A stretch of 64,000 nt of DNA, from assembly GCA_951406725.2 (NCBI GenBank), contig OX597816.1, positions 31,992,001 through 32,056,000 on the forward strand. The letters are read 5' to 3'. The stretch comes from Octopus vulgaris. Taxonomy: Eukaryota. The translations under genes were made by a program, and so were the position numbers. The notes below the pieces were generated by a model that searched no databases, was not told the DNA's origin, and saw only the letters and a list, made by a program, of their open reading frames with translations. This document shows positions 9,120-32,507 of this stretch, in pieces (position 1 is the first letter of the stretch; every line of letters starts with the position of its first letter).

Positions 9120-10470
9120 TCCCTCTTCCGTTCTTGGCGAGGAGAGACTTCCAATTGATGACGAAAAGCTTCTTACACTCAATCCAATTTGTAATTCAAC
9201 TAATTTACTTGATGATTTGGTGAATGGAATCTTTCCTAATTTTCTGCATAATGCAGCAATACGAATTGGATCTGTGAGCGAGCTATCCTGGCTCCCAAAA
9301 CGTCTTGCAGTTGATAGCATTAAGAATATACTATTGAATAAATTTCCGGGAGATATATTGGCTTATAACCCAATTGACAGTGTTGTTGATGATCAGGATA
9401 ATGTTAAAACGCCATTGAAATTTTGAACTCACTAGATCCACCAGGTATAGCTCCTCATAGTCTTCAGCAGAAAAAGGAACTACTATTATGATATTGCGTA
9501 ATTTGTCTCAACCAAAATTATGCAACGGTATAAGATAAATTGAGCACAAACTTATGAGTATCTGCTTGATGAAAATATTCTCACTGGTTGTGGTAAAGGA
9601 GACACCGCCTTCATTCTTCGTATACCAGTTATACCATCTAATGTCTCATTCTACTTCAAACGATTACATGTTCCTATACGAGGTTCATTTGCCACAAGCA
9701 TCAATAAAAGTCAGGGCCAAACACTAAATGTTGCTGGATTGCAACTTCAAGAACTGCGAAGTCAAAGTAGGAGCATCATGTGCTGGATGGAGCAAAAGGA
9801 AATGATTTTGCTGACGTTGCCCGAAATAAAACAAAAAAAGCATTGCTTATAAGGAAATATTCAGTCTTAATGCAACATGAGTACTTCCATAACTCAATTT
9901 CCCATTACTATCATTACATTCAAGTATGACTATGTTACCTCTTTCAATGATCTGTATCATATAATTGTCATGACTGTATTGATGAATATAGTAAAAAATA
10001 AAACTTACTATTGTGATATAATAAATCAACTGAAGTTCATGTCTTTTCTTGTTCAATTTGTAAAAGATGTCAAAAGATCACCATGTGTAGTAAAGGAATA
10101 TGTACACCGAAATAAAATGATATAAAACATTGTTTATAAAGAAATATTCATTCTTAATGCAACATAAATACTTCAGCAACTTCATATACTAATACCAACA
10201 TTAGAATGAAGAATGAGTTAATTACGTATTTCAATGAACGGTATTATATAATTGTCATTAATGCATATATTAATAAAATAATACATATACGTATTATTGC
10301 CATATCATAGCAAACCACAAGTTCATGTGTGATATTCACCCCCCTTCTACGTCAATTTTCGCATGGCTTAATCTTCTAAAAATACATACATAGAGGAGGA
10401 GTAAATTAAATGTGGCTCCTGATAAACAGAAAATGTAATTATCCGATCAACACTGGGTATTTCTGCTCGT
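9120..10470 (+). mobile_element. Helitron 3' fragment with PIF1-like helicase pseudogene
   Basis: Broken translation reads NSLDPPGIAPHSL, IMILRNLSQPKLCNG, RIPVIPSNVSFYFKRLHVPIRGSFATSINKSQGQTLNVAGL, which are Helitron helicase C-terminal motifs. Possible 3' terminus ccgatcaacactgggtatttctgctcgt at about 10443-10470. Confidence 0.9.
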
Positions 10471-10515
10471 ATGTGCGTATATATAAATAACAATTACATA
10501 CATATGAATATATAT

Positions 10516-11317
10516 AACGTGCGTCCGTAGATAACTTAAAATTGTATGATAGATTGCCGTCAATTCATTCTCTCTTACCTGTTTGTGTCTGCCTTCCAAT
10601 TGCTGTATTTTTACTGAGATCTCCCTTTTTAGTAGAAGAAATAGCTATAACTCTTTGACTGCTATTTCTAAATTCGGTCTGTGGCAAGGCAATTCGTTGC
10701 TAAACCCTTTATTGCTTAGTATTACTTAAATTTTCCTCGAATGAGGCTTTTACATACCGAAGACTACTTGGTGTAATTGATAATTATTCCAAATTAATTA
10801 ATTTCACCCTTCATTATTACGGATAACCATATTTTATCTCAGTAGATGACCACAGCATCTTGTTTTGGCTACACGCGGGTGGGAAGGGGCTGGTGACACA
10901 ATCTTTTCATTCACACTTTGAATTTGGTGATACTAGTTGCGGATTCTAGCTCGCTCTGATACTGAGTTGAGTTGGTGCCTTCTAGTATCTCAAAATTCAA
11001 TATATAATCATTTATGATTATAGTATTCTACGCTGAAGAGAAAAGAAGTTTGGGTAAGGTAGAATTATTTAATATTTAATTCTTATGCTTTCCTAAAAAC
11101 TTGATTTCGAAACGTGCGTCCGTAGATAACTTAAAATTGTATGATAGATTGCCGTCAATTCATTCTCTCTTACCTGTTTGTGTCTGCCTTCCAATTGCTG
11201 TATTTTTACTGAGATCTCCCTTTTTAGTAGAAGAAATAGCTATAACTCTTTGACTGCTATTTCTAAATTCGGTCTGTGGCAAGGCAATTCGTTGCTAAAC
11301 CCTTTATTGCTTAGTAT
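10516..11317 (+). mobile_element. Non-coding hammerhead-bearing element, 595-bp unit, about 1.35 tandem copies (retrozyme or Penelope pseudo-LTR-like)
   Basis: Direct repeats of about 207 bp at 10516-10722 and 11111-11317 appear identical. TA-rich flanks. Hammerhead at 11027-11126. Confidence 0.8.
11027..11126 (+). ncRNA. Type I hammerhead ribozyme motif
   Basis: tctacg-CTGAAGA-g(69-nt hairpin stem II)c-GAAA-cgtgcg-TC-cgtaga. Stem I tctacg/cgtaga is complementary. GUC cleavage predicted after 11120. Confidence 0.8.
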
Positions 11318-11324
11318 ATATATA

Positions 11325-11375
<51 letters not shown>

Positions 11376-15849: not shown

Positions 15850-18800
15850 TTCCTCACACTTTAAGAGGTCGTGCAGATCACCACCTGCAGTTCATGAATT
15901 ACTCTAAAGAATCTATATTGATGGGAGTCGCTAGAAATACTAAAAGTGCGAAGCAATATAGATACATAGACACAAGTACCAAGCGAGCGAAATATAAATA
16001 TAAACAGCAAGAGAGGAGTGCTATAACAACAGCAAAAATAAAATACAACAACACTTCACCTCCGAAAACCAAACAACGAAGATCGATCTATGGGTAAACC
16101 ATAACACCAAATAATACAAACATGAACAACCTATCATATAACCAAGTGGCAAACCAAAGAGGCACCTCTTTTTTACTAACTTATCTAGAATATATGAAGG
16201 CCGACCTAAGCTATGAGATCCGACGTGCTATCAGTAGCCATATATTCAAGACACAAGGAACACCCACTAACCATCAACTAGAACATCACACGCACACACT
16301 GCTCCATACTAAATCTCCCACTCACTGCTAGCTCTAAACAGCATAACACGATATTAGGCATTTAGAACAATACAGACATCAAATTACATTTGTCTGGACA
16401 TTCGTACTAAAAGTGGCATCGACCCATCACTCACTGCCCCAAAATGGAATATCCCATACATATATAGTTGGCTTGCCGAAACGGCACGCAACATCCCTTT
16501 CGTTATCCTTACTGAAAATCACCTAAACAGCATTCACATTGATGCCGAGCTGAAAATAAAAGATTTCATTATCATCCGTGCAGATCGCACAGACCGAAAT
16601 AAAGGAGGAACAGACCTGTTTCTTCGTGACTCCTTTTTACTTGATGCCAAGGATATATTTTCCATTGGCTAGTGCGAATCCATATCAATATTCAATAATA
16701 TCAATATACAATAAGGCGGCGAGCTGGCGGAAACGTTAGCACGCCGGGGGAAATGCGTTGCCGTATTTCGTCTGCCGTTATGTTATGAGTTCAAATTCCA
16801 CCGAGGTCGACTTTGCCTTTCATCCTTCCGGGGTCGATAAATTAAGTACCAATTACGCACTGGGGTCGATGTAATCGACTTAATCCCTTTGTATGTCCTT
16901 GTTTGTCTCCTCTGTGTTTAGCCCATTGTGGGTAGTAAAGAAATACATATTCAACAAGGTCAACGACATTATCATTGTTGATCTTTACAGTCCTCTAAAT
17001 GCTTCATTAAATTCAAGTTCGTCCTTCAAAAATATTATACCGGAAACACACTGGTGATGGATGAATTAAACCTTTCTTATATTAACTTACCCGCGAATAC
17101 TCTGAAGTTAGGCAACTGCAACTTACTCTTTAATGGATTATTTTTCCTGACACACCTAGTGCTCCATCCATGAAGATAAACTATAACAACCATGGATATA
17201 ATATTAACATATCACTCTATCTCTATTCACAGTATCAAAGACCTGCAGATGAACAGCTGTTGATAAAAAGTATAAAACAGAACTCATATGCAAATTAGCA
17301 TAAGACCAATGTCTAGCCAGTTGGTCCATTGATCGATGATAACGGCATCCTGCAGCACGATGCTAAAGAAATGGCAGAATTATTGCAGAAACAATATTGC
17401 TCTGTCCTTAGTAATCCCACTGATATTGACGTAAGGGAAGCGAACGAAGTCGATACCCAACATATAATCTCGGACATACCCGTTACCGCTTCAGAAATCA
17501 CAGTAGCAATAAATGAGTACCAATACTGCTGCAGGCCCTGTAAGATTCCCCGCTAATCGCATGAAGGAATGTAGACGCTAACTTGCAGTCCCTCTAACTA
17601 ACCTCTGGAGAAATTCTTTGAACTCAAATTAAATACCGAAACAGCTCTTATCCCGTTTTTGAAACAGAAAAACAGATCGTTCGCAGTTAGCTATCATTTA
17701 GCCTCAATCACTTCCCATATCATTAAAGTGTTTGAAAGGGTACTTGACATCTTGGAGAACAACATACTCCGACATTTAAACCGGCATGGCTTTCGCTCCG
17801 TCCGGGACTGTCTACAAAAACTCTTACACCACATTGATGATGTCCTTAGGCATTCAGATCAGGTTCGAACTCTAATGTCATGTATCTTGACTTCATTAAA
17901 GCGTTCGATAGAGTGGACCATAGTATCCTACTGTAAAAATTATGAAAGGTTGGAGTCAGTGAAAAAATATACACTGGATTGTGTATTTCCTGGAGAACTG
18001 AACACTTGTTCTGATCAGTAGAATCAACTCAAGCCCAACAAATTTCACAAGTGGTGTCCCTCAGGGGACTATCTTGGGTCCACTCCTCTTTATAGTCTAT
18101 ATAAACGACCTATCCAGCAACATAAAACAAAGCAAATTAAAAAATAATCGCCTATGATTCTGAGCTTCAGAAAATTATCAATGAAGAAGACTGAACTGAA
18201 ATCATGTCTGATCTACATGCTGTGATTCAATGGACAGACAAAAACAAACAGGAACTAAACCATGGACAATTTGAGCTGAAGCATTTTGGAAGAAACACTA
18301 TTCTCAGACAGTTATAATCTCTTCCTTCGGCGGAACCAGTCACAACATCTGGTAATATCAGAGACCTAGGAATAATTGTTGATAATCTCAGCTGGAGTAC
18401 CCACACCAACAATAAGGTCGATATAGCTCACAGTATGAGCTCCTGGATCCTAAGTACCTTCCCGTCAGAGAGCAAGGTGTCATCATTTCTTTTTCTCCTC
18501 GTTTGTACTGCCACACCTCGAATATTGCTGGCCCCTGTGGTCTCCCCCATACAAAACAAAATATCTCGAAAGGCATGACTGATATCGATTATTGGCACCG
18601 CCTCAAAGAATTGAAATTCTATTATATCCAGCGCCGCAGCGAGCGATACATCCTTTGCACGATGTGTATAATATACCACGACCATTGCCCAAACGACCTC
18701 AACATTAGCTTCTATATTCATCCAATGGTAGGTCTACGGGTCATAATCTCCTACCAAATTCATGATCACAACACATAAATACACTGCCCTATTTAACATT

Positions 18801-31019: not shown

Positions 31020-31326
31020 ATATATATATATATATATATAATTTCAACAATTGAGGGTAAAATTAATTAATTATTAATCAATTTCACCAAGTGTTCAGTA
31101 TGCAAAGGGACCATTTAAGGCAAATTCAAATTATTACATTATATAAAAGGGCTTAGTAAAATAAATTACTTTGCCGCATACTGAACTCATTAGAAATAGC
31201 AGCTAAAAAACTTTTTTAAAACTATTTCTAATACTTAAAGAAAACCTCTCTCATATAGTGTTTGCTCAACTCAACTCACGAAAGTTTGGGGGTAAAGACA
31301 TCAAAAAATCAAATGCAAAGGTTATT

Positions 31327-31378
31327 TGAGAACGTACGTTTCAAGATTAGTCAACACGACACTTCTATCATCAGCTCA
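31327..31378 (-). ncRNA. Type I hammerhead-like motif (inverted copy)
   Basis: Reverse complement of 31661-31712. Confidence 0.62.
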
Positions 31379-31660
31379 GAAACTCCTTGGTTTGGATTTG
31401 AAAACACTGAAAGTGAGAGCATACCCTTTCGGCTTCTCATCGCTTTCGAAGATCTGCTCGCAACTAACAGATTTTAACGAAATAAGCATAGTGTTTGCTG
31501 ATTTTAACCCACGCTGGTGGAAAGGGGAGAACAGAAATTCTTCGCTTGCATATTTGAGTTTGTTGGCACTGTTAGCTGCGAGCAGATCTTCGAAAGCGAT
31601 GAGAAGCCGAAAGGGTATGCTCTCACTTTCAGTGTTTTCAAATCCAAACCAAGGAGTTTC

Positions 31661-31712
31661 TGAGCTGATGATAGAAGTGTCGTGTTGACTAATCTTGAAA
31701 CGTACGTTCTCA
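31661..31712 (+). ncRNA. Type I hammerhead-like motif
   Basis: tgag-CTGATGA-tagaagtgtcgtgttgactaatctt-GAAA-cgtacg-TT-ctca. Palindromic stem III and a GUU site. The first pair of stem II is T/T, which is non-canonical. Confidence 0.65.
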
Positions 31713-32220
31713 AATAACCTTTGCATTTGATTTTTTGATGTCTTTACCCCCAAACTTTCGTGAGTTGAGTTGAGCAAACACTATATGAGAGAGATTTTCT
31801 TTAAGTATTAGAAATAGCTTTAAAAAAGTTTTTTAGCTGCTATTTCTAATGAGTTCAGTATGCGGCAAAGTAATTTATTTTACTAAGCCCTTTTATATAA
31901 TATAATAATTTGAATTCGCCTTAAATGGTCCCTTTGCATACTGAACACTTGGTGAAATTGATTAATAATCAATTAATTTTACCCTCAATTGTTGAAATTA
32001 TAATTAATCTCCCTCTAATTAATGCTTCGGATTTTACCGAAATAAGCATAGTGTTTGCTGATTTTAACCCACGCTGGTGGAAAGGGGAGAACAGAAATTC
32101 TTCGCTTGCATATTTGAGTTTGTTGGCACTGTTAGTTGCGAGCAGATCTTCGAAAGCGATGAGAAGCCGAAAGGGTATGCTCTCACTTTCAGTGTTTTCA
32201 AATCCAAACCAAGGAGTTTC

Positions 32221-32272
32221 TGAGCTGATGATAGAAGTGTCGTGTTGACTAATCTTGAAACATACGTTCTCA
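32221..32272 (+). ncRNA. Type I hammerhead-like motif (second tandem copy)
   Basis: Same as 31661-31712 but stem III is catacg (one substitution). Confidence 0.55.
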
Positions 32273-32453
32273 AATAACCTTTGCATTTGGTTTTTTGATG
32301 TCTTTACCCCCAAACTTTCGTGAGTTGAGTTGAGCAAACACTTATATAGAGAGGTTTTCTTTAAGTATTAGAAATAGTTTTAAAAATGTTTTTTAGCTGC
32401 TATTTCTAATGAGTTCAGTATGCGGCAAAGTAATTTATTTTACTAAGCCCTTT

Positions 32454-32507
<54 letters not shown>

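What the first reader, a model, noticed from the sequence alone, without database searches (positions are those of the whole stretch)
10516..11317. 595-bp unit with terminal redundancy that begins at the ribozyme cleavage site
The element starts 10 nt before the predicted GUC site (10525) and passes the same site again at 11120, 595 nt later. It then continues about 200 nt into a second, apparently identical round. A greater-than-unit-length copy is expected from reverse transcription of a circular or multimeric RNA (inference). The identical repeats imply a recent insertion. The unit is longer than the roughly 170-400 nt I recall for described animal retrozymes.
Basis: partly seen in the sequence, partly recalled or inferred. 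Interest (0 to 1): 0.82.

Follow-up and report, generated by a model that had tools for sequence, protein, structure and literature searches.

The report
Ribozyme repeat hitchhiking on Penelope retrotransposons
This is one of hundreds of young copies of a 595-base non-coding repeat with a predicted self-cutting ribozyme, likely pasted into TA microsatellites by a Penelope-type reverse transcriptase reading a probably circular RNA; the copies' ends give indirect evidence for how animal 'retrozymes' spread.

Summary
The 207-nt identical repeats, 595 nt apart, are real. The locus is a 1.35-unit insertion of a young, dispersed, non-coding tandem element with a type I hammerhead that has an unusually long 69-nt stem II: an animal non-LTR retrozyme. 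It starts 10 nt before the cut, not at it. Across 115 pieces, 5' ends scatter round the unit; 97 of 115 3' ends fall at two internal sites about 200 and 300 nt past the cut, nearly always in (TA)n. Inverted two-arm insertions mostly use one site per arm (20 of 32). This matches Penelope-like (PLE) two-site, both-strand priming. Units within an insertion share one haplotype, and this copy's private variant occurs only in its own two repeats, so one template was likely read more than once. Circle versus partly cut multimer is unresolved: six loci stop at the cut. Sister families (560-601 nt) share the priming domain. Four young (TA)n-ending PLE families exist; none carries that domain, so the partner is unidentified. 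The unit length is within a published range (51-972 bp). Cleavage and circular RNA are untested. Earlier scan notes (unchecked) report ribozyme-free analogues in other genomes.

The parts
10516..11317 (+). whole insertion, 1.35 units (u586 to u197)
10526..11120 (+). 595-nt unit from predicted cut to predicted cut; 35% GC; longest ATG-started frame 23 codons
   Evidence: folding z -5.8 against 100 shuffles
10516..10722 (+). first copy of the 207-nt redundancy; holds only the 3' half of the hammerhead
11111..11317 (+). second copy of the 207-nt redundancy; ends at priming site A
11027..11126 (+). type I hammerhead: stem I 11027-32/11121-26, core CTGAAGA 11033-39, stem II 11040-11108 (69 nt), GAAA 11109-12, 2-bp stem III with self-complementary loop, predicted cut after C11120
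10631..10831 (+). domain conserved across sister families (hairpin, long helix enclosing site A, hairpin before site B); inferred reverse-transcriptase loading domain
10708..10728 (+). 3'-end site A (u183-203; u197 alone 41 of 115 ends); used by this copy at 11317
10817..10833 (+). 3'-end site B (u292-308; 30 of 115 ends)
10685..10685 (+). private T>C variant (u160), repeated at 11280
10508..10515 (.). left (AT)n target remnant
11318..11340 (.). right (TA)n target, followed by (AG)n to 11373

Best explanation
This is a 1.35-unit copy of a young, non-coding, hammerhead-bearing 595-nt tandem element (an animal non-LTR retrozyme) in a (TA)n tract, likely inserted by a borrowed Penelope-like reverse transcriptase/endonuclease that probably read round a circular RNA. 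Step 1 (inferred): tandem copies are transcribed; the hammerhead, predicted to need a dimer because stem III is only 2 bp, cuts after GUC; monomers are likely ligated into circles. Step 2 (inferred): a PLE enzyme binds the conserved domain, nicks (TA)n and primes cDNA internally at site A or B, not at the cut. Step 3 (pattern shown, cause inferred): both target strands can be primed, mostly one at A and one at B, giving head-to-head inverted arms. Step 4 (pattern shown): synthesis stops at near-random points after 0.2 to about 6 rounds. Here it started at u197 and stopped after 802 nt, which produces the 207-nt redundancy.
For: 3' ends: 67 at A and 30 at B of 115 pieces; 103 of 115 followed by (TA)n; 5' ends uniform over ten bins (p=0.37). 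The most TA-like stretches of the unit (u475-495, u540-556) take only 2 and 0 ends, so TA microhomology alone does not pick the sites. 32 adjacent inverted pairs: 20 A+B, 3 A+A, 0 B+B; 11.0 A+B expected; 0 of 20000 permutations reached 20. A purified PLE starts internally at two RNA sites and extends both DNA strands (PMC11167929); (TA)n bias, inverted 5' copies and a one-ended tail are PLE traits (PMC8557442). One template per insertion: 1809 concordant and 16 discordant within-locus pairs at 12 polymorphic sites (1150 expected), 785 and 14 across arms, 20 haplotypes among 62 loci; 15 locus-private variants shared by all passes in 12 of 59 multi-pass loci. This copy's variant context has 2 exact hits in the 2.8-Gb assembly, its own two repeats. 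No indel within 7 nt at 171 crossings of the cut. Hammerhead: 95% of cells paired, 4 of 12 pairs with two-sided changes across three families. Six loci have a 5' end at u1-u2, a hint that the RNA is cut there in vivo. Circular retrozyme RNAs are shown in coral, mussel and axolotl, and PLE mobilisation is proposed there (PMC7229834).
Against: No RNA evidence of cleavage or circles was obtained. Four of the six loci that stop at the cut had first crossed an intact site (1.3-1.5 units), which fits a partly cut linear multimer better than a circle. Stem III pairing probability in the folded monomer circle is 0.01. In PMC11167929 ribozyme mutants did not affect insertion and unprocessed RNA was the main substrate. 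No PLE examined carries the domain, so the partner is inferred from insertion pattern only. Within-locus heterogeneous sites recur between loci 9 times against 4.3 expected (5-95% range 1-8). The covariation set is 10 related sequences, and stem II's first pair is broken in all four 578-family rows. The domain shows only 1 of 30 pairs with a two-sided change.
Confidence: 0.52

Rival explanations
1. Same element and same PLE-type mobilisation, but the template is a linear, uncut or partly cut multimeric transcript of existing homogeneous arrays; circles, if made, are a by-product.
For: Four loci cross one intact site and then stop at the next cut (L095/L268, L272, L020, L035). The monomer stem III is weak. 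The ribozyme is dispensable for PLE insertion in vitro. Non-autonomous Chlamys elements form head-to-tail arrays in a clade mostly lacking hammerheads. Earlier scan notes describe ribozyme-free arrays with this pattern (unchecked).
Against: Private variants are fixed in all passes, and for this copy no parent array exists in the assembly. Arrays of up to 9 units persist despite 5' truncation. Few unit-specific variants pass between loci.
Confidence: 0.35
2. The template is the cut linear monomer, and the enzyme jumps from its 5' end to a 3' end to build multimers.
For: Small excess of 5' ends at u1-u2 (3 of 115, p=0.02; six loci in all).
Against: 0 indels at 171 crossings of the site, whereas inversion junctions vary from 43 nt of filler to 5 nt of overlap.
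Confidence: 0.06
3. The copies are truncated pseudo-LTR pieces of an autonomous PLE, not an independent element.
For: PLE-type ends; Xenopus retrozymes are related to pLTRs.
Against: The unit repeats head to tail up to about 6 times per arm with no coding sequence. PLE protein matches in unit loci (4 loci among L001-L100) and sister loci (4 among L141-L212) lie in the flanks; where the junction was viewed, (TA)n separates them from the unit. Four young PLE families lack the domain.
Confidence: 0.05
4. An LTR-type element (TRIM or LTR retrozyme) or a one-off local duplication.
For: Two identical direct repeats around a 388-nt spacer.
Against: No TG...CA ends, no primer-binding or polypurine tract next to the repeats. 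The redundancy length differs from copy to copy and no unique target-site duplication was found. 272 exact hits of the junction 28-mer, control 0.
Confidence: 0.01

Closest known systems
Animal non-LTR retrozymes (Cervera and de la Pena 2020, PMC7229834; Li, Clavereau and Pollet, bioRxiv 10.64898/2026.07.22.740005)
   Same: Non-coding tandem repeats, one type I hammerhead per unit, GC under 45%, 6-bp helix I, 2-bp helix III with palindromic loop, co-occurrence with PLEs.
   Different: Stem II spans 69 nt (about 30-70 nt in sister families) against a 4-bp helix II in the canonical form (PMC4209133). No matching pLTR was found, unlike 24 of 57 Xenopus families that match known TEs. Insertion ends and (TA)n targeting are mapped here; the words target site, microsatellite and integration do not occur in PMC7229834's main text.
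EN+ Penelope-like elements (Neptune/Nematis type; Poseidon PAc in vitro, PMC11167929)
   Same: Two internal 3'-end sites downstream of a hammerhead, 5' truncation, inverted 5' arms, a tail at one end only, (TA)n targets.
   Different: No ORF; the unit repeats onto itself; the two sites are about 100 nt apart rather than 30-40; canonical rather than minimal hammerhead.
Non-autonomous Chlamys PLEs such as MRC1 (PMC8557442)
   Same: Non-coding, multicopy head-to-tail PLE-type insertions.
   Different: [quoted passage not shown]
Plant LTR retrozymes (search listing and passages only)
   Same: Hammerhead-bearing non-autonomous retroelements with circular RNA intermediates.
   Different: Type III ribozyme in true LTRs with PBS, PPT and 4-bp TSD; none of these is present here.

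Membership tests
Non-LTR retrozyme | Type I hammerhead motif in each unit | tested here: met
   (Rfam score below gathering; covariation supports stems I and II)
Non-LTR retrozyme | Head-to-tail repeats from monomers to multimers, dispersed | tested here: met
   58 of 78 loci have a piece longer than one unit
Non-LTR retrozyme | Non-coding, GC under 45%, no LTR features | tested here: met
Non-LTR retrozyme | Unit size (170-400 nt originally; 51-972 bp in the 2026 preprint) | tested here: met
   595 nt is outside the first range and inside the second
Non-LTR retrozyme | Self-cleavage of the RNA | tested here: inconclusive
   Only indirect: six loci stop at u1-u2
Non-LTR retrozyme | Abundant circular monomer RNA | not testable with these tools
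   Only assembled contigs were available
Non-LTR retrozyme | Homology to a host PLE pLTR (proposed in the 2026 preprint) | tested here: inconclusive
   None in four young families and about ten older fragments; the PLE set is incomplete
Penelope-like element (autonomous) | RT plus GIY-YIG ORF | tested here: not met
PLE-mobilised element | Two internal 3' sites, 5' truncation, inverted arms, microsatellite target | tested here: met
LTR retrozyme / TRIM | Fixed LTRs with TG...CA, PBS/PPT, short TSD, type III ribozyme | tested here: not met

The most novel reading that the evidence does not exclude
The 560-601-nt families are a lineage of viroid-like circular RNAs with no living parent transposon. 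They keep a conserved structure that loads a dimeric Penelope enzyme, which primes the two target strands at two sites on one circle. Between genome visits they also replicate RNA-to-RNA, which would explain why variants shared by all passes are mostly A>G and T>C (10 of 15, against 16 of 86 one-pass variants, p=0.0003). The same spectrum also follows from selection for G-U-compatible changes or polymerase error.
Probability: 0.1. Interest if true: 0.85.

Novelty: new variant of a known kind. Interest (0 to 1): 0.5.

Why it matters
How animal retrozymes get back into the genome has been a proposal: circle plus a borrowed enzyme, PLE suspected. This young family supplies the footprints: two defined priming sites, a strand-by-site pairing, a (TA)n target, single-template multimers, and intact candidate enzymes in the same genome. 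The circle-versus-multimer question and the partner's identity become direct bench tests. A compact RNA domain that recruits a (TA)n-targeting enzyme could also be of use for insertion tools.

Tried and rejected
Expression: no RNA holder listed on record. Contigs of three runs guessed to be RNA and one of unknown kind cover the unit, but contigs show no ends, strand or joints; this is not counted for or against. A control laying over neighbouring DNA did not complete, so background is unknown. Partner search: no blastn or profile match of the unit, domain or ribozyme to the non-coding parts of the 781-aa family, the 775-aa family, a third family or a fourth. Of 12 local alignments against shuffles, two were reached by at most 1 of 100 shuffles; I treat them as AT-rich chance and did not inspect them. 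L1-style twin priming (inverted arm starting where the direct arm stops) shows no general adjacency. TA microhomology as sole site selector was rejected. The domain motif is absent from IMG/VR viral contigs. A short-gap hammerhead pattern missed this ribozyme because of the long stem II. No earlier notes exist for this genome. Lunse et al. 2017 on dimeric PLE hammerheads was not held.

Full report
Observation. Window 10516-10722 and 11111-11317 are identical over 207 nt, 595 nt apart, between short (AT)n on the left and (TA)n then (AG)n on the right. I number the unit from u1 = 10526, the base after GTC. The insertion runs u586 to u197, 1.35 units. It contains the 10 bases before the first GTC, so the template was joined across that site; it is not a cleaved 5' end. 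The host is an unnamed animal-like genome of 2.8 Gb.

Ribozyme. A type I hammerhead spans 11027-11126: 6-bp stem I, core CTGAAGA, a 69-nt stem II, GAAA, and a 2-bp stem III. Rfam RF00163 aligns end to end at 21.2 bits, below its cut-off of 34, with 65 inserted bases. Across 10 sequences of three families, 95% of cells pair, 4 of 12 pairs change on both sides, and slid controls pair at 18-42%; these rows are related, so the shuffle counts are not probabilities. Stem III plus loop is self-complementary (duplex -10.2 kcal/mol; the natural variants give -11.2 and -15.3), while stem III pairing in the monomer circle is 0.01. This fits the dimer-dependent canonical form (PMC4209133, passages). Cleavage is not shown.

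Family. A DNA search gave 175 matches from 40 of 1984 candidates (the best listed at 97-100% identity); a junction 28-mer has 272 exact hits, control 0. I analysed 79 loci from L001-L100, after dropping overlapping fetches, merging two, and ignoring pieces under 60 nt or 95% identity; one locus gave no piece, and L018/L022 may be a local duplication. Selection favoured young copies that span the cut. Of 115 pieces, 67 end at u183-203 (site A) and 30 at u292-308 (site B); 103 are followed by (TA)n; 5' ends are uniform (p=0.37); loci hold 0.16-9.1 units; 34 loci are inverted. One copy sits in (GATA)n and ends in GATA (L023). No unique target-site duplication was found. Among 32 adjacent inverted pairs, 20 join an A arm to a B arm against 11.0 expected (0 of 20000 permutations); in 11 of 32 both arms exceed one unit.

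The cut as an end. Because sampling could miss short copies starting at the cut, I searched for breaks there: 8 hits genome-wide, 4 of them true 5' ends at u1-u2; the pattern cannot see all such ends. With L020 and L035 that makes six loci. My rough expectation is one to two. This is a weak sign of cleavage in vivo and concerns a few per cent of ends. Four of the six had already crossed an intact site, which favours partly cut multimers for those events.

One template per insertion. Passes within a piece differ by 0.43%, arms of a locus by 0.60%, loci by 1.35%. At 12 polymorphic sites, within-locus pairs agree 1809 to 16 (1150 expected), and 15 locus-private variants are shared by all passes, 8 of them across both arms. 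This copy's u160 variant context occurs twice in the assembly, once in each of its repeats; a third hit on another background lies in one unit of another array. All 171 crossings of the cut are free of indels. These data show repeated reading of one sequence. They do not separate a circle from a homogeneous parent array that is missing from this assembly. Heterogeneous sites recur between loci slightly more than expected (9 against 4.3), several at homopolymer or CpG positions.

Sister families. Related units of about 601, 584, 578, 562-564 and 560 nt carry hammerheads with long stem II and end at the same two places in a shared 200-nt domain. One motif of that domain has 7046 exact hits, control 0. 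Its consensus fold has 30 pairs, mostly invariant or changed on one side, so its structure is plausible but weakly proven.

Partner. The genome holds at least four young families related to one RT plus GIY-YIG protein (Pfam): 781-aa frames, 775-aa frames with 110 of 110 scored matches identical, a third and a fourth. All end in (TA)n; the first two show partial tandems, inversions and two 3' ends. The first three have a CX4CxxC linker before the endonuclease, a Neptune/Nematis trait linked to (TA)n targeting (PMC8557442, passages); no tree was built. None carries the unit's domain. The partner is therefore inferred from the insertion pattern, which matches in vitro PLE behaviour: internal initiation at two sites, both strands extended, ribozyme not required (PMC11167929, main text).

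Comparison and novelty. The element meets the testable features of non-LTR retrozymes (PMC7229834: passages and Discussion; bioRxiv 2026.07.22.740005: parts 1-3 of 5). It departs in the long stem II and in lacking a recognisable pLTR parent. Seven literature searches showed no description of retrozyme insertion ends in what I read; supplements and subscription papers were not seen and may hold one. PMC8490949 (passages) added nothing. Verdict: a new variant of a known kind, valuable mainly because it makes the mobilisation model testable. Interest 0.5.

Noticed in passing
window 31037-32464: A sister-family insertion (560-nt period, domain 67% identical) with an inverted arm, three hammerheads and (TA)n on both sides.
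   Followed up: partly
L122 5390-5430; L124 640-685; L109, L110: The 781-aa PLE's terminal repeat has a hammerhead-like motif with core TTGATAA (U3-A8 in place of C3-G8; the variant name is recalled) and a covarying stem II. Activity untested.
   Followed up: partly
L124 808-1500; L224 4200-5200: Both the 781-aa and 775-aa PLE families carry a long, apparently coding stretch between the terminal repeat and the RT frame; whether it is a separate ORF or is joined by splicing or frameshift was not tested.
   Followed up: no
L104, L108, L129, L133, L156 flanks: Further unrelated type I hammerheads with stem II of 14-61 nt; the genome seems rich in ribozyme repeats that a gathering-level Rfam scan would miss.
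   Followed up: no
L097/L242, L233, L139: Retrozyme-family pieces sit in the (TA)n tract next to PLE 3' ends, consistent with shared targeting.
   Followed up: partly
L087: The 9-unit locus has arm-specific variants (3 against 6 passes), so its two arms may come from two RNA molecules of one haplotype.
   Followed up: partly
runs X1, X5, X11, X15: The unit is held under seven organism labels; laid runs confirm it for two labels, A and B.
   Followed up: partly
window 9544-9852 and 16358-18021: Frames that look like a Helitron/PIF1 helicase fragment and LINE endonuclease/RT fragments (recognised from memory, not tested). A 287-nt degenerate repeat lies at 9828-10328.
   Followed up: no
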